The notes under the pieces are model-generated. The model worked only from the letters and a program-made list of their open reading frames with translations. It was not told where the DNA came from and made no database searches. This document shows, piece by piece, positions 28,980 through 63,170 of a stretch of DNA of 64,000 nt (the first letter of the stretch is position 1; every line of letters begins with the position of its first letter). The DNA lies in sequence record OP795442; one strand, written 5' to 3'. The translations under genes and the position numbers were made by a program. The DNA comes from Escherichia phage A7_1.

Positions 28980-29489
28980 TTAAGGGTGAATCCAGTAAAA
29001 AGGTTTTGTTAAACCAAGCTTACCTTTCGGGTCCCAAATGAAGTAGGCATACGCCGCACCATCTGTTTTCCCATCCTCAGTAAAAGAGGGTCGCTTGGAT
29101 AGAGTAACCAAATGATCAACAGGATATTCCTTCCAGAACTCCACACGTTTGGTACTCTCAAGGAAACCTAAACGAAGCAGCATTATCACCACATCAGCAT
29201 CCTTGTGAGCCTTCTCTACAAACTCTTGAGCTAAATTATAAGGTGGGTTAGTTAACACACAATCTACCTTATTGTATTTAGTTGCAAGATAATCAACACC
29301 TTCTTGAATCTCTCCCCAAGCTGAACCAATTGGCATTTCATTATAAAAACGTCCAGAGGCTCTGCAAGGTTCCAGATAAGTCCAATCCTGACGGATTGGA
29401 ACTAAATTCAAGAAAGCATCTACTGCCCATTTCGGAGTTTCATAGCGATCATTTTCACGGCGTTCTGCTTTAGGTTTCAATGCTGCCAC
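28980..29489 (-). CDS. small DNA N6-adenine methyltransferase (Dam-like)
   Basis: NPPY catalytic motif (TNPPYN). Confidence 0.65.
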   Translation of the reverse strand: MAALKPKAERRENDRYETPKWAVDAFLNLVPIRQDWTYLEPCRASGRFYNEMPIGSAWGEIQEGVDYLATKYNKVDCVLTNPPYNLAQEFVEKAHKDADVVIMLLRLGFLESTKRVEFWKEYPVDHLVTLSKRPSFTEDGKTDGAAYAYFIWDPKGKLGLTKPFYWIHP

Positions 29490-58519: not shown

Positions 58520-58659
58520 GATTTATTTTTCCTCTCTCCAATACCTTTGTTAAGATACTTAACCAAACTGATACCAAATGCTATTAGCATCAGAAACCAC
58601 ACTGTTCCAAACTCAACAATGTTCAATCCAAAAGCTACAACATCGTTACACTCTTTCAT
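58516..58659 (-). CDS. hypothetical small membrane protein (47 aa), absent from track
   Basis: ATG overlaps upstream stop; TGA overlaps downstream ATG. Confidence 0.35.
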   Translation of the reverse strand: MKECNDVVAFGLNIVEFGTVWFLMLIAFGISLVKYLNKGIGERKNKS

Positions 58660-58940
58660 CAGATCATCTCCAAAGTTATTAGTACATTATCCAAATCTTC
58701 AGCCACAAGCTGTAAGTCAGGCTTCATACTATCTTCCACACGATGATAAATCAAGCCTTTTTCCACATACTGATTCATTACTCCGTAATAGTTCCCCAAA
58801 ATGGTGTACCAGTCACATTCGTAAACAGTAACAACACATACTTTCAGTCCAGCTTTTGCTGAATGCCAAGCTTCTCTCGTAGCTTGAAGATGACTTAATT
58901 CATTTTCTGATAACTTTTTACATTTATTATTCAAAATCAT
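58659..58940 (-). CDS. hypothetical protein (93 aa), first gene of the minus-strand block
   Basis: Track ORF just downstream of the minus-strand promoter. Confidence 0.45.
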   Translation of the reverse strand: MILNNKCKKLSENELSHLQATREAWHSAKAGLKVCVVTVYECDWYTILGNYYGVMNQYVEKGLIYHRVEDSMKPDLQLVAEDLDNVLITLEMI

Positions 58941-58975
58941 TATAAAGATAACCTGTTGTTTGTTAAAGTAGAGTC

Positions 58976-59004
58976 ACTATACCTATGTAAAAACTCCATG
59001 TCAA
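58976..59004 (-). promoter_or_regulatory. sigma70-like promoter for the minus-strand block
   Basis: On minus strand: TTGACA, 17 nt, TATAGT. Confidence 0.55.
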
Positions 59005-59117
59005 GACTTTAAATTTAAAAAATTTAGTATAAAATCTATAAAAGATCCTTTAAGATCTGTAGATCATATATAAAAAGATCTTATAAAAGATCTTGTTTTT
59101 ATTGTTTTTAATAATAA

Positions 59118-59167
59118 TTATGAATGAAATGAATAATTATTATATAATTTATGAATGAAATGAATAA
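59118..59167. repeat. 19-bp perfect direct repeat TTATGAATGAAATGAATAA, 2 copies
   Basis: Copies at 59118-59136 and 59149-59167. Confidence 0.85.
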
Positions 59168-59251
59168 ATTATAATGATAAAGGGTTTGGCGAGAGGCTTC
59201 GAGCCAGGGAAATCTAATATAGTATTGTATGCCTAAACGGGCATAAAGGGT

Positions 59252-59280
59252 TTGACATGTTGGGATAGTCATGTAAGATA
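59252..59280 (+). promoter_or_regulatory. candidate promoter for the plus-strand block
   Basis: TTGACA 59252-59257 with weak -10 AAGATA. Confidence 0.35.
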
Positions 59281-59307
59281 GCGAAGGTAAGGTTAAGAGG
59301 AGGGATT

Positions 59308-59694
59308 ATGTTTGAGATAAACACCTCTGTTGGGAAGAAGACTTTTGAAGACGATGCGTTCGCCATGCTTCCTCTTCGTTGGGTTACTGAAATGTCCGGC
59401 GAGGATTTAAAGAGGATGATACTTTTGAGGTGGAGATTTTCATTCTTTGCGGAGTTTGCTTCTCGACAGGGCGAATCAGTGGAAACGTGTTTCTATGAAT
59501 CGCAGGTGGCATTGTGTGAGTTGTTTCAAATGTCACCGACCAGTCAAGCCAAGGTAAGTGCATTCCTTAAGAAGATGGAGACTGGTGGTTACATCAGGAT
59601 TTACAGAGATAAAGTGATAATCAACGGGAAGTCGAAACCACGTCATTACATTGTGGTTAACGACCCAATACTTAAAGAGAAGTACGGATATTGA
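59308..59694 (+). CDS. hypothetical protein (128 aa)
   Basis: ORF with RBS GAGGAGGG. Confidence 0.5.
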   Translation: MFEINTSVGKKTFEDDAFAMLPLRWVTEMSGEDLKRMILLRWRFSFFAEFASRQGESVETCFYESQVALCELFQMSPTSQAKVSAFLKKMETGGYIRIYRDKVIINGKSKPRHYIVVNDPILKEKYGY

Positions 59695-61420: not shown

Positions 61421-61492
61421 GGCCCTGTAGCTGGACGGTTCAAGCAAGCGACTCATAATCGCCAGACGGTGGTTCGATTCCACCCAGGGCCA
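61421..61492 (+). tRNA. tRNA with CAU anticodon (Met, or Ile2-type)
   Basis: 7-bp acceptor GGCCCTG/CAGGGCC, loop CTCATAA, T-arm GGTGGTTCGATTCCACC, encoded CCA. Confidence 0.8.
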
Positions 61493-61628
61493 CCATATGA
61501 AGTCGGGTCGCTCCCGATAAGTCGTCGGACTGATGTTCCCTGACTACGAGTTCCCTCAACGATAACGACGTAGATCACAGCAGAAACGGCGCACCCTATT
61601 TCATTTCTTAATACATTTCAATAAGTTC

Positions 61629-61657
61629 TTGACATAATCCTATTATACTGCTAATAT
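61629..61657 (+). promoter_or_regulatory. sigma70-like promoter (TTGACA 61629-61634, TAATAT 61652-61657)
   Basis: 17-nt spacer. Confidence 0.55.
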
Positions 61658-61678
61658 AGTTATATCGACTGAATTGAG

Positions 61679-62059
61679 GTGTTTATGGCTAAAGCTGAAA
61701 TCGTTACTCGAAAACGCGGTCGGCCTACTACAGAGGAAAGCATTGCAATCAATACTGAGAGAGCAATTCTTCATGCTCGTTCCGAGTTTGCAAGACTTAC
61801 TCCTCAAGCAATTAAAACTCTGGAAGGTCTACTGACTTCCGGTACAGAGAAAGTTAAAGAAACTACTGCGAAGTATATTCTTGAGCAAGCTGAAAAGGCA
61901 AACAATCTGTACACGATGGAAGATAATGAAGAGGATCTGGCAGGAGGAACTACTTCTGCAAATTCAGAAACTCATCAAGGCCCTTCTGATGCATTTAAAG
62001 ATGCTATTCCATTAACTACTCAGATTCGTGAGTATAAAATGGCAGAAGGTGAAGATTAA
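61679..62059 (+). CDS. hypothetical protein (126 aa) with N-terminal RKRGRP basic motif
   Basis: ORF with RBS GAGGTG. Confidence 0.5.
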   Translation: MFMAKAEIVTRKRGRPTTEESIAINTERAILHARSEFARLTPQAIKTLEGLLTSGTEKVKETTAKYILEQAEKANNLYTMEDNEEDLAGGTTSANSETHQGPSDAFKDAIPLTTQIREYKMAEGED

Positions 62060-62297
62060 GGCTCGCAAGGGCCTTTACTAAGAAGTTCTCTTTAAGGTAG
62101 TTGCTTGGTGTAATTTTTCGGCAGATGGCTGCAACCATCCTATCGATAACTTATAGTTAGTGCTGCAAACACTGGCTACCTTAAAGAGAATTTAACTCGT
62201 CGAATAAGGAAGATGCTGATCTCAAAGTGAGGTCACTTACCGCAAGGGGTGTGCATAGACTCCCGCTTCCGAATAGACTATGTGGCGAGATGTATTT

Positions 62298-62376
62298 GGG
62301 GACGTGGCAGAGCGGTCGAATGCGCCTGACTGTAAATTAGGTATCCCACACGGTGGTTCGAATCCATCCGGCCCCA
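62298..62376 (+). tRNA. tRNA-Tyr (GUA), class II
   Basis: Loop CTGTAAA, D-loop GAGCGG-type, T-arm GGTGGTTCGAATCCATC, encoded CCA; one A-G mismatch in acceptor stem. Confidence 0.65.
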
Positions 62377-62382
62377 CCAAAT

Positions 62383-62455
62383 TTTCCGTTAGGCTTACAG
62401 GATAAGATTCCCACAACGTATCGTTGTGATACTGGTTCGAATCCAGTACGGAAAC
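62383..62455 (+). ncRNA. tRNA-like element with non-canonical anticodon arm
   Basis: Perfect acceptor and T-arm, but central 7-bp hairpin CACAACG-TAT-CGTTGTG replaces a canonical anticodon loop. Confidence 0.3.
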
Positions 62456-62582
62456 CAAATTAAGCCGTGATGTGATGTAATCACTGACCTCTTTGAAGGA
62501 TCATGGCATTTTATACAAAAACCTGAATAATTTAGGTTTTAATTCCTGGGGTTCGTAGCCCTATTACTAAGAGGACTTAACT

Positions 62583-62792
62583 ATGTTTACTATTAAAATT
62601 ATTGATATCGATGGAAATGAGACTGGTGTTTCAACAAGGCACTATAGATGGTACTCAAAAATGAATATTTTTGATCTGGATGGTGGTGAATCTGTTTCTG
62701 TACCACCAAAAAGTCGTGCTTATGTAATGAATGACAAAGGAATAACCATCGGTAGATACACAAATACAGCGGATCAACGCGTTCTTAATTAA
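62583..62792 (+). CDS. hypothetical protein (69 aa)
   Basis: ORF with RBS AAGAGGA; ends 1 nt before tRNA-Gly. Confidence 0.45.
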   Translation: MFTIKIIDIDGNETGVSTRHYRWYSKMNIFDLDGGESVSVPPKSRAYVMNDKGITIGRYTNTADQRVLN

Positions 62793-62793
62793 A

Positions 62794-62865
<72 letters not shown>

Positions 62866-62967
62866 CCAAACCTCTATCCATCTGACGCGTTTATGGGGTT
62901 GACCTGATCACTCTTCTCCTAATCTCGTGTGAAGACACCATGATTGTTGGGATGGATAAACTTCTTT

Positions 62968-63039
62968 TGGGGATTAGCCAAGCGGTAAGGCATCGGATTT
63001 TGATTCCGACATTCACTGGTTCGATTCCAGTATCCCCAG
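62968..63039 (+). tRNA. tRNA-Gln (UUG)
   Basis: Perfect stems; loop TTTTGAT; U1-A72 start as in E. coli tRNA-Gln (from memory); encoded CCA. Confidence 0.9.
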
Positions 63040-63047
63040 CCAATTAA

Positions 63048-63121
<74 letters not shown>

Positions 63122-63170
63122 CCAATTTACCCTCATATAATAACAATAATATAATCTCCTCTCCTTCGCC

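What the first reader, a model, noticed from the sequence alone, without database searches (positions are those of the whole stretch)
58941..59307. Divergent control region with back-to-back promoters, a 19-bp direct repeat and a dense GATC cluster
The region holds a good minus-strand promoter (58976-59004) and a weaker plus-strand candidate (59252-59280), the exact repeat TTATGAATGAAATGAATAA at 59118 and 59149, a repeated ATAAAGGGTTTG motif, and five GATC sites within 49 bp (59044-59092) inside an AAAGATCTT-like reiterated unit. Five GATC in 49 bp is far above chance for AT-rich DNA and recalls Dam-regulated origins or promoters; the phage encodes its own Dam-like enzyme.
Basis: partly seen in the sequence, partly recalled or inferred. 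Interest (0 to 1): 0.5.

Follow-up and report, generated by a model that had tools for sequence, protein, structure and literature searches.

The report
Conserved phage early-promoter and origin-like hub
This 367-bp gap between two oppositely oriented phage gene blocks is a real control region, conserved across the phage subfamily, that holds strong back-to-back host-type promoters, a row of GATC-containing boxes and the most easily melted DNA in the genome, next to a small DNA-binding protein gene, so it is a good but unproven candidate for the phage's still unmapped replication origin.

Summary
The window is a Septuagintavirus-like member of the Vequintavirinae. The region is the spacer between a leftward early block and a rightward operon whose first gene (59308-59694) encodes a 128-aa winged-helix protein.

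The same module order recurs across the subfamily and in remote metagenomic relatives:
- a leftward promoter;
- AAGATCTT-type boxes;
- a T-tract;
- two A/T-only palindromes, replaced by other repeats in some clades;
- a GC block;
- an inverted repeat next to the rightward -35;
- the winged-helix gene.

The GATC cluster is the core of these reiterated boxes. Some orthologous boxes read GGTC, AGTC or AATC, so the box is conserved and Dam methylation is not shown to be the selected feature. The phage methyltransferase is not demonstrably Dam.

Positions 59060-59179 (12% GC) are the least stable duplex of the whole ~145-kb genome. The palindrome arms co-vary. The protein's closest structural matches include replication-initiator DNA-binding domains.

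My best reading, at about 0.42, is an early divergent-promoter hub that is also a replication origin, with the winged-helix protein as binder and autoregulator. A purely transcriptional switch is nearly as likely. Nothing here was tested functionally.

The parts
58659..58940 (-). First gene of the leftward block (93 aa, phrog_12865, rv5_gp018-like, function unknown)
58976..59004 (-). P_left: sigma-70-type promoter TTGACA-17-TATAGT. The -35 is conserved in Certrevirus, SSBI34, PVP-SE1, KB57 and Hena1.
59005..59040 (.). A/T tract upstream of P_left, UP-element-like. It also holds a weak rightward promoter candidate, TTTAAA-16-TAAAAT at 59008-59035 (9/12). Its positional equivalent is a strong promoter in KB57 (11/12), PVP-SE1 (10/12) and TH18 (10/12).
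59031..59094 (.). Array of six AAGATCTT-type boxes: AAAATCTA, AAGATCCT, AAGATCTG, TAGATCAT, AAGATCTT, AAGATCTT. It carries the five GATC sites (59044, 59054, 59062, 59077, 59089). The last box continues into an oriC-13-mer-like GATCTTGTTTTTA.
59093..59110 (+). T-tract direct repeat TTGTTTTTA x2. This is the conserved TTGTTTT(A)TTGTTTT module, also present in PVP-SE1, KB57, Hena1 and L025.
59111..59143 (.). A/T-only palindrome 1: arms 59111-59121 and 59133-59143 (11 bp, perfect) around the asymmetric core GAATGAAATGA. It contains the first 19-bp repeat.
59143..59173 (.). A/T-only palindrome 2: arms 59143-59152 and 59164-59173 (10 bp, perfect) around the same core. It contains the second 19-bp repeat.
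59060..59179 (.). Least stable 120 bp of duplex in the window and in the rest of the A5-4 genome (12% GC). This is the candidate DNA-unwinding element.
59177..59188 (+). First copy of ATAAAGGGTTTG
59188..59205 (.). GC-rich block GGCGAGAGGCTTCGAGCC, with CGAG repeats and a short hairpin. A GC block holds the same position in Certrevirus, SSBI34, Kashira and L027.
59212..59249 (+). 38-nt element ATCTAATATAGTATTGTATGCCTAAACGGGCATAAAGG. It contains the inverted repeat ATGCC/GGCAT (59229-59233 and 59240-59244) just upstream of the P_right -35. It is the candidate operator of the winged-helix protein. A second copy, 37/38 identical, lies at about 70.3 kb of the A5-4 genome.
59243..59254 (+). Second copy of ATAAAGGGTTTG, overlapping the -35 of P_right
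59252..59279 (+). P_right: TTGACA-16-TAAGAT. The -35 is conserved across genera.
59308..59694 (+). 128-aa winged-helix protein (phrog_8453), always the first gene to the right of this junction. Its fold is closest to replication-initiator DNA-binding domains.

Best explanation
The spacer is the conserved early-control hub of this Vequintavirinae phage, and most likely also its replication origin.

**Shown from sequence and comparison.**
- Two strong host sigma-70 promoters fire outward.
- Between them lie, in a fixed order kept across genera: a row of AAGATCTT-type boxes about one helical turn apart, a T-tract, two A/T-only palindromes with a conserved 11-nt core, a GC block, and an inverted repeat next to the rightward -35.
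- The first rightward gene encodes a small winged-helix DNA-binding protein.

**Inferred mechanism.**
- The winged-helix protein binds the inverted repeat, and possibly the boxes. This would autoregulate P_right and mark the site.
- Divergent transcription would drive negative supercoiling into the 12%-GC core. In other clades a promoter also reads into the A/T tract.
- The core would then melt or extrude its palindromes, giving the phage's T7-like primase-helicase and polymerase an entry point.
- The GATC sites are part of the boxes. Dam methylation and SeqA binding could modulate the site in enterobacterial hosts, but this is not required by the data.
For: **Anatomy and promoters.**

**Conservation.**
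- The non-coding core 58994-59174 is 73-76% identical in 22 Certrevirus records. In the protein search the neighbouring winged-helix protein is only 51-57% identical in those Certrevirus phages.
- The same module order is seen in SSBI34, Kashira, PVP-SE1, KB57, Ro1 and Hena1.
- It is also seen upstream of remote homologues of about 24-31% identity in metagenomic contigs L015, L025, L026 and L027. In L025, L026 and L027 the gene is the first gene at a divergent junction with a 357-834-bp spacer.

**Melting.** Positions 59060-59179 have a summed nearest-neighbour energy of -118.5 kcal/mol, against a mean of -156.3 (sd 6.5). The next lowest is -134.8 in the window and -130.9 in A5-4 positions 1-90000.

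**Palindromes.**
- Nine arm pairs are complementary in 100% of 14 units.
- Five pairs change on both sides (A:T to T:A, and one G:C).
- 0 of 500 shuffles reach the observed covariation.
- Both strands are predicted to form hairpins as single-stranded DNA, z = -2.5 to -3.4.

**Boxes.** They are enriched in most clades. UPEC06 has a 10-bp insertion that adds a sixth GATC. Matches to the oriC 13-mer GATCTnTTnTTTT number 26 against 9.6 expected over 14 spacers, including one perfect match in L026.

**Protein.**
- The AlphaFold2 model has mean pLDDT 86.
- The Foldseek PDB top hit is 4pql_B, deposited as 'N-terminal domain of DNA binding protein' (E = 3.5e-3). From memory, not checked here, this is the related RepA N-terminal domain.
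- Among named viral structural neighbours, four are 'replication/replicon initiation' proteins against one 'transcription repressor'.
- Long family members end in acidic ...VPF or ...PPF tails that resemble the SSB C-terminus.

**Promoter reading into the A/T tract.** KB57 11/12, PVP-SE1 10/12, TH18 10/12, the last followed by about 95 bp of pure A/T.

**Skew and literature.** The cumulative GC-skew minimum of the window lies here. No origin has been defined for rV5-like phages (PMC3606486). The Septuagintavirus paper has no mention of promoters and discusses no replication origin (PMC11370258).
Against: - There is no functional evidence of any kind.
- The GC-skew switch coincides with the switch in gene orientation, as the rV5 authors already noted, so skew does not discriminate.
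- The 128-aa protein lacks the C-terminal recruiting domain of true initiators.
- The protein's neighbours are small early genes and tRNAs here, and NAD-salvage genes in other genera.
- The DNA polymerase and primase-helicase genes sit in the leftward block that ends at the other divergent junction, about 75 kb away, not beside this spacer.
- There are only two 19-bp repeats, they are palindromic, and they are replaced by unrelated repeats in clades B and C.
- No DnaA or IHF sites are present.
- In this phage the promoter that reads into the A/T core is weak (9/12).
- The 38-nt inverted-repeat element has a second copy elsewhere in the genome, which fits a transcription factor with a small regulon.
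Confidence: 0.42

Rival explanations
1. The spacer is a purely transcriptional switch. It would be the operator region of two divergent early promoters. The winged-helix protein, as the first product of P_right, would bind the inverted repeat and/or the boxes to shut off or re-time early transcription, as with lambda Cro at OR or phi29 p4 between A2c/A2b and A3. The A/T tract, T-tracts and palindromes would act as UP elements, bent DNA or sites for nucleoid proteins.
For: - The promoters are the best-supported parts.
- A small DNA-binding protein gene sits first in the operon at every junction examined.
- An inverted repeat abuts the -35 in this window. In L026 it overlaps the -35 and spacer of TTGACC-16-TATAAT, which is a classical autoregulatory layout.
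- A second copy of the 38-nt element in another intergenic region suggests a regulon.
- The boxes lie about 40-95 bp upstream of the P_left -35, where upstream activators usually sit.
- The replication genes are elsewhere.
Against: - It does not explain why the core is the genome-wide stability minimum.
- It does not explain why the palindrome arms are kept A/T-only and self-complementary while their sequence drifts.
- It does not explain why the protein's best structural matches are initiator domains.
- The recognition helix is nearly invariant across the family while the inverted-repeat sequence varies, which is awkward for a simple one-protein, one-operator model.
Confidence: 0.36
2. The key function is epigenetic control by Dam and SeqA. 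The GATC cluster would be there to be methylated. SeqA, or a methylation-sensitive binder, would then time origin firing or promoter activity, as at oriC, P1 oriR or Vibrio oriII. This could be true together with either of the two main models.
For: - There are 5 GATC sites at 8-15-bp spacing in A/T-rich DNA.
- Two to four GATC sites are kept in the same module in most enterobacterial-host relatives and in L025.
- One relative gained a sixth.
- No substitution among the four close relatives aligned falls inside a GATC.
- All known hosts are Dam-positive Enterobacterales (established knowledge).
- There is a precedent of initiator sites that need GATC methylation (PMC2865523).
Against: - Orthologous boxes lose the GATC while keeping their flanks: GGTC in Ro1 and Hena1, AGTC in Hena1, AATC in this window and in Certrevirus.
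- TH18 and Kashira have only one or two scattered sites.
- The phage methyltransferase cannot be assigned GATC specificity.
- GATC is generally over-represented in this genome.
Confidence: 0.15
3. The spacer is a structured RNA leader. A distal rightward promoter would transcribe the whole spacer, and the A/U hairpins, GC block and inverted repeat would act as RNA elements controlling the winged-helix operon.
For: - Strong distal rightward promoters exist in KB57, PVP-SE1 and TH18.
- The 268-nt RNA folds with z = -2.3.
- By inspection of the sequences, some GC-block stems would need G-T pairs, which are tolerated only in RNA.
Against: - There is no Rfam match.
- The distal promoter is weak here (9/12) and falls below the scan threshold in CR9.
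- The hairpins are replaced by non-palindromic direct repeats in clade B.
- Dyad covariation fits a DNA cruciform or a dimer-binding site equally well.
Confidence: 0.07

Closest known systems
E. coli oriC unwinding region and the P1 plasmid oriR core (GATC-rich A/T repeats bound by SeqA); Vibrio cholerae oriII iterons that contain GATC (PMC2865523). The oriC and P1 details are from memory.
   Same: - A dense GATC cluster in very A/T-rich DNA, next to repeats and to a gene for a winged-helix protein.
- One box runs into a GATCT-T-rich 13-mer-like sequence.
- The hosts have Dam and SeqA.
   Different: - No DnaA boxes.
- 13-mer matches are partial, 9/11 specified bases in this window.
- GATC is not invariant in orthologous boxes.
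- There are only two 19-bp repeats and they are palindromic.
- The element belongs to a lytic myovirus.
- There is no sequence homology to plasmids.
Origin plus adjacent initiator of the lambda O, DnaD-type 'replisome organizer' or RepA_N type. Structures 4pta and 4pql; that these are the staphylococcal RepA N-terminal domains is from memory.
   Same: - A small winged-helix domain with an N-terminal extension and a C-terminal helix.
- Dyad-symmetric sites next to an A/T-rich tract.
- The protein gene is adjacent to the sites.
   Different: - No Pfam, NCBIfam or PDB sequence match.
- The protein has no helicase- or primase-recruiting domain.
- The sites lie outside the gene.
Transcription-activated phage origins: the T7 primary origin and T4 oriF/oriG, each a promoter followed by an unwinding element (from memory).
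   Same: - Strong promoters flank or read into an easily melted tract.
- The phage encodes a T7-like primase-helicase.
   Different: - In this phage the strong promoters fire away from the A/T core, and the inward one is weak.
- R-loop priming is untested.
Divergent-promoter genetic switches: lambda OR with Cro/CI, and phi29 p4 at A2c/A2b-A3 (from memory).
   Same: - Back-to-back promoters.
- Reiterated dyad sites between and next to them.
- A small DNA-binding protein is encoded first in one operon.
   Different: - The spacer is much longer.
- The core is extreme in A/T content, with co-varying A/T-only palindromes.
- The protein fold is nearest to initiators.
Herpes simplex virus oriS and oriL: an A/T palindrome between divergent promoters (from memory).
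   Same: An A/T-rich palindrome that can extrude, lying between divergently transcribed early genes and flanked by binding sites.
   Different: It is an unrelated virus with unrelated proteins. This is an analogy only.

Membership tests
Dam/SeqA-controlled origin (oriC / P1 oriR type) | Cluster of GATC sites in an A/T-rich unwinding region | tested here: met
   There are 5 GATC sites in 49 bp, inside or next to the 12%-GC genome-wide stability minimum.
Dam/SeqA-controlled origin (oriC / P1 oriR type) | DnaA boxes (TTWTNCACA) adjacent | tested here: not met
   No exact box is present. The single 1-mismatch hits are not conserved between relatives.
Dam/SeqA-controlled origin (oriC / P1 oriR type) | Three or more 13-mers GATCTnTTnTTTT | tested here: inconclusive
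   This window has two hits with 2 mismatches. PVP-SE1 and KB57 each have one with 1 mismatch, and L026 has one perfect match. Over 14 spacers there are 26 hits against 9.6 expected, but the sequences are related to each other and T-rich.
Dam/SeqA-controlled origin (oriC / P1 oriR type) | The GATC sites themselves are conserved among relatives | tested here: not met
   Orthologous boxes read GGTC, AGTC or AATC in Ro1, Hena1, Certrevirus and this window. GATC counts in the whole spacer range from 1-2 to 5-6.
Dam/SeqA-controlled origin (oriC / P1 oriR type) | Function depends on methylation or SeqA | not testable with these tools
   This needs dam and seqA hosts and 6mA mapping.
Iteron origin with adjacent rep gene (P1, pSC101, F, RepA_N plasmids; lambda ori) | Three or more direct repeats of about 17-22 bp in helical phase | tested here: not met
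   There are only two 19-bp repeats, 31 bp apart here and about 39 bp apart in Certrevirus. Each lies inside a palindrome, and they are absent in clades B and C.
Iteron origin with adjacent rep gene (P1, pSC101, F, RepA_N plasmids; lambda ori) | The adjacent gene encodes a member of a known initiator family | tested here: not met
   There is no Pfam, NCBIfam or PDB sequence match. There is structural resemblance only.
Iteron origin with adjacent rep gene (P1, pSC101, F, RepA_N plasmids; lambda ori) | A/T-rich unwinding element next to the binding sites | tested here: met
Transcription-primed phage origin (T7 primary origin, T4 oriF/oriG) | A promoter reading into an unwinding element | tested here: inconclusive
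   Such a promoter is strong in KB57, PVP-SE1 and TH18 (10-11/12). It is only 9/12 here, and below the scan threshold in CR9.
Transcription-primed phage origin (T7 primary origin, T4 oriF/oriG) | A persistent R-loop or RNA primer at the site | not testable with these tools
   This needs in vivo mapping.
Divergent-promoter switch with autoregulator (lambda OR, phi29 p4) | Back-to-back promoters, with a DNA-binding protein gene first in one operon | tested here: met
   The same layout is seen in every relative examined.
Divergent-promoter switch with autoregulator (lambda OR, phi29 p4) | Dyad operators at or overlapping the core promoters | tested here: inconclusive
   The inverted repeat ends 8 bp before the -35 in this window. 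It overlaps the -35 and spacer in L026. No dyad lies over P_left.
Divergent-promoter switch with autoregulator (lambda OR, phi29 p4) | The protein binds these sites and changes transcription | not testable with these tools
   This needs EMSA, footprinting and reporter assays.
phiTE pseudo-ToxI antitoxin-mimic repeat locus | Same locus or ToxI-like 36-nt repeat | tested here: not met
   The phiTE escape locus is at 106,714-106,772. The orthologue of this spacer is at about 99,267-99,536.

The most novel reading that the evidence does not exclude
This spacer is the primary replication origin of the Vequintavirinae. It would be a structure-based origin in which two A/T-only palindromes with a conserved 11-nt core extrude or melt under divergent early transcription. 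It would be organised by a minimal, single-domain DnaD/RepA_N-like winged-helix protein. Its firing would be tuned by host Dam and SeqA through the GATC boxes. That would be a lytic-phage origin type not described before.
Probability: 0.15. Interest if true: 0.7.

Novelty: new variant of a known kind. Interest (0 to 1): 0.45.

Why it matters
- No origin of replication and no early regulatory circuit has been defined for rV5-like phages, a subfamily used in phage therapy and biocontrol.
- This spacer is unannotated, or carries only doubtful 'hypothetical protein' calls, in the records examined.
- It is more conserved than its flanking genes and now has a defined anatomy that can be tested directly by deletion, footprinting and marker-frequency sequencing.
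- If it is the origin, it gives a handle for engineering these phages and a new example of how a lytic phage couples early transcription, and possibly host methylation, to initiation.
- If it is only a promoter switch, it is still the main early control point, but ordinary in kind.

Tried and rejected
- **phiTE pseudo-ToxI locus.** The ~31-39-nt tandem repeats suggested the phiTE antitoxin-mimic locus. That locus is 7 kb away, so this is rejected.
- **Known RNA family.** Rfam gives only one sub-threshold chance hit.
- **Small ORFs in the spacer.** One reading frame, 59108-59272 on the minus strand, is annotated in UPEC06, and others are annotated in F1M1E. Indels of 7, 8, 10 and 13 bp between relatives rule out coding.
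- **Plasmid-origin homology.** The DNA search gives only chance hits (E about 0.3-0.9), and the protein search finds nothing.
- **DnaA and IHF sites.** Nothing is conserved.
- **A repeat family across the window.** The spacer's motifs are unique in the 64 kb. Genome-wide, only the 38-nt element recurs.
- **Context of long homologues with SSB-like tails.** The contigs are too short or uninformative.
- **Degenerate hairpin pattern in IMG/VR.** It returned only single chance hits in unrelated contigs, so it was useless.
- **AlphaFold database fold search.** The library was not available.
- **pac site or injection-stop signal.** I considered these but found no support. The terminase large subunit gene starts about 4.7 kb downstream, and no terminase-linked features were found.
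Full report
**What the window is.**
- The 1.1 kb around the finding is 97.5-98.9% identical to Escherichia phages A5-4, UPEC06, vB_EcoM-LTH01, A73 and W70.
- These are Vequintavirinae of the proposed genus Septuagintavirus (PMC11370258).
- The finding covers exactly the 367-bp spacer between the minus-strand ORF 58659-58940 (93 aa, phrog_12865) and the plus-strand ORF 59308-59694 (128 aa, phrog_8453).
- In the A5-4 genome this is one of two divergent junctions.
- To its left runs a ~49-kb leftward block that includes DNA ligase.
- To its right run the winged-helix gene, small genes, five tRNA genes and then the terminase and structural genes.

**Check of the observation.** All listed features are present.
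- P_left is TTGACA-17-TATAGT at 59004->58976 (11/12). P_right is TTGACA-16-TAAGAT at 59252->59279 (10/12).
- The exact 19-mer lies at 59118 and 59149. ATAAAGGGTTTG lies at 59177 and 59243.
- GATC starts at 59044, 59054, 59062, 59077 and 59089.
- GATC is over-represented genome-wide, 396 sites against 254 +/- 15. By uniform placement the cluster is therefore only marginal (P about 0.06), although the next densest 5-site cluster spans 153 bp.
- Against local composition, 0.9 sites are expected in the spacer and 0.38 in the 64-bp core.
- AAGATCTT with at most 1 mismatch occurs 4 times against 0.35 expected (P = 0.001).

**Finer anatomy.**
- The GATC sites are the cores of six 8-bp boxes between 59031 and 59094: AAAATCTA, AAGATCCT, AAGATCTG, TAGATCAT, AAGATCTT and AAGATCTT.
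- They are followed by TTGTTTTTA x2 at 59093-59110.
- Each 19-bp repeat sits inside a perfect A/T-only inverted repeat. The arms are 59111-21/59133-43 and 59143-52/59164-73, around the asymmetric core GAATGAAATGA.
- Then come a GC block (59188-59205) and a 38-nt element (59212-59249) whose inverted repeat ATGCC/GGCAT ends 8 bp before the P_right -35.
- Positions 59090-59179 are 10-13% GC.

**Conservation.**
- A sensitive DNA search finds the core 58994-59174 at 73-76% identity in 22 Certrevirus records from Cronobacter, Pectobacterium, Enterobacter, Klebsiella and Pantoea hosts.
- The alignment keeps both -35 hexamers, the A/T tract, the boxes, the T-tract, both palindromes and the element upstream of P_right.
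- The winged-helix gene has homologues in 73 phage records. In each junction I fetched, it is the first gene to the right of a 270-600-bp divergent spacer.
- In PVP-SE1, KB57, Ro1 and Hena1 the boxes and the TTATGTTTTATTGTTTT tract persist. The A/T palindromes are replaced by ATAAGTTAGT x2, and the single inverted repeat by two or three ATTCC-N5-GGGAAT(AATTAG) dyads.
- rV5-like TH18 has TTCGAA-type palindromes and about 95 bp of pure A/T.
- The protein family is tiny: 19 representatives among 1.8 billion proteins.
- Even so, four remote members in metagenomic contigs show AAGATCT boxes and T-rich or A/T tracts upstream of the gene. Three of them (L015, L025, L026) also show clear dyads such as TTGTTCC-N6-GGGAACAATTAG or TGACCATTTGGTCA. 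In L025, L026 and L027 the gene is first at a divergent junction.
- In L026 the dyad overlaps the -35 and spacer of TTGACC-16-TATAAT.

**What this says about the GATC cluster.**
- The reiterated box is what is conserved.
- Orthologous boxes read AAGGTCTT and AAAGTCTT (Hena1), TAGGTCTT (Ro1), GAAATCTT (Certrevirus) and AAAATCTA (this window).
- GATC counts in the whole spacer range from 1-2 to 5-6.
- Among the four close relatives aligned, no substitution falls within a GATC. UPEC06 carries a 10-bp insertion that adds a sixth site.
- The data therefore allow a role for methylation but do not require one.
- The phage's 'Dam-like' enzyme is a 169-aa NPPY methyltransferase (28980-29489). It has only sub-threshold similarity to phage Dam models, and its specificity is unknown.

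**Evidence bearing on an origin.**
- Positions 59060-59179 are the least stable 120 bp of duplex in the window: -118.5 kcal/mol against a mean of -156.3 (sd 6.5), with the next lowest at -134.8. They are also less stable than anything in A5-4 positions 1-90000, where the best is -130.9. This makes the stretch the genome-wide minimum.
- The palindrome arms stay complementary while their sequence changes. Nine pairs are paired in 100% of 14 units, five pairs change on both sides, and 0 of 500 shuffles reach the observed covariation.
- That pattern points to a structural or dyad constraint with a conserved core, GAnTGnA(A/T)nGA. The number of independent changes is small, because the units fall into two paralogous types.
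- A73 changes the same core position in both units, which is concerted change.
- The cumulative GC-skew minimum of the window lies here. It coincides with the switch in gene orientation, the same caveat the rV5 authors raised when they failed to define an origin (PMC3606486).
- In KB57, PVP-SE1 and TH18 a strong rightward promoter sits back-to-back with P_left and reads into the repeats and A/T tract. Here the equivalent promoter is weak, TTTAAA-16-TAAAAT at 9/12.

**The protein.**
- AlphaFold2 gives mean pLDDT 86 and a winged helix with an N-terminal extension and a C-terminal helix.
- Sequence searches give only sub-threshold winged-helix hits.
- The Foldseek PDB top hit is 4pql_B (E = 3.5e-3).
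- Among named viral structural neighbours, four are replication or replicon initiators and one is a repressor.
- Long homologues carry acidic tails ending in VPF or PPF, reminiscent of the SSB C-terminus.
- This leans towards an initiator-type DNA-binding domain, but it is a resemblance and not membership.
- The recognition helix S-(R/Q)-x-K-V-S-x-F-L is almost invariant across the family, while the dyads vary. Which site it binds therefore remains open.

**Evidence for the rival, a purely transcriptional switch.**
- The layout is that of a classic autoregulated divergent-promoter switch.
- The dyad abuts or overlaps P_right.
- The 38-nt element has a second copy, 37/38 identical, in another intergenic region at about 70.3 kb of A5-4, near a different promoter. 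This suggests a small regulon.
- The DNA polymerase and primase-helicase genes lie in the leftward block that ends at the other divergent junction, whose 120-bp spacer is unremarkable.

**Verdict.**
- The 'divergent control region' reading is supported.
- The 'Dam-regulated' part is neither supported nor excluded.
- I rate 'early promoter hub that is also the replication origin, with the winged-helix protein as binder and autoregulator' at about 0.42.
- I rate 'transcriptional switch only' at about 0.36.
- A Dam/SeqA role is possible as an overlay on either model, at about 0.15.
- The element belongs to known kinds of control region but fits none of the defined origin families: no DnaA boxes, no classical iterons and no recognised initiator family.
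- It is unannotated in public records, or carries only doubtful 'hypothetical protein' calls. It is worth a wet-lab test.

Noticed in passing
window 59212-59249; A5-4 (OP744025) about 70,283-70,320, minus strand (L024 29283-29320): The 38-nt element holding the inverted repeat upstream of P_right has a second copy, 37/38 identical, in another intergenic region outside this window. There it is preceded by a GC hairpin (AAACCCC...GGGGTTT) and an A/T tract, but it lacks the promoter, the boxes and the palindromes. It may be a second binding site for the same factor.
   Followed up: partly
L021 (UPEC06), aligned to window 59066: UPEC06 has a 10-bp insertion, TATAGATCAT, that adds a sixth GATC box to the array. 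LTH01 shows the same 374-bp match length. So box copy number varies between phages that are about 97% identical.
   Followed up: yes
L022 (A73), aligned to window 59127 and 59158: A73 changes the same core position (GAATGAAATGA to GAATGTAATGA) in both palindromes. W70 has the same match length and identity in the BLAST search but was not fetched or aligned. This is concerted evolution or gene conversion of the two 19-bp repeats.
   Followed up: partly
whole window: GATC is over-represented about 1.55-fold: 396 sites against 254 +/- 15 expected from dinucleotide shuffles.
   Followed up: no
window 28980-29489 (-): This ORF encodes a 169-aa NPPY-motif DNA methyltransferase (phrog_799). It gives only sub-threshold matches to phage Dam models, so its target sequence is unknown.
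   Followed up: partly
window 61421-63124 (+): A cluster of five tRNA genes (Met, Tyr, Gly, Gln, Pro) lies downstream of the winged-helix operon.
   Followed up: no
proteins P0025, P0027, P0028 (remote homologues of window 59308-59694): Family members of 233-253 aa carry an acidic C-terminal extension ending ...DTVPF, ...DWVPF or ...DPPF. This resembles the protein-interaction tip of bacterial SSB.
   Followed up: partly
window 58939-58966 (-): A second near-consensus promoter match, TTAACA-16-TATAAT, has its -10 overlapping the ATG of the 93-aa gene. It is probably not a promoter for that gene.
   Followed up: no
L002-L007, Certrevirus orthologues of window about 58976-59004: In Certrevirus the spacer of P_left itself carries two GATC sites (GGATCATTGGATCA). 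They are absent in this phage.
   Followed up: no
L015 1098-1220: A small ORF that was not called as a gene (MKLLLPKDLIMWLDEHRGSLSRQAFIIQTLL...) lies between the dyads and the remote winged-helix homologue. It looks like a small DNA-binding protein.
   Followed up: no
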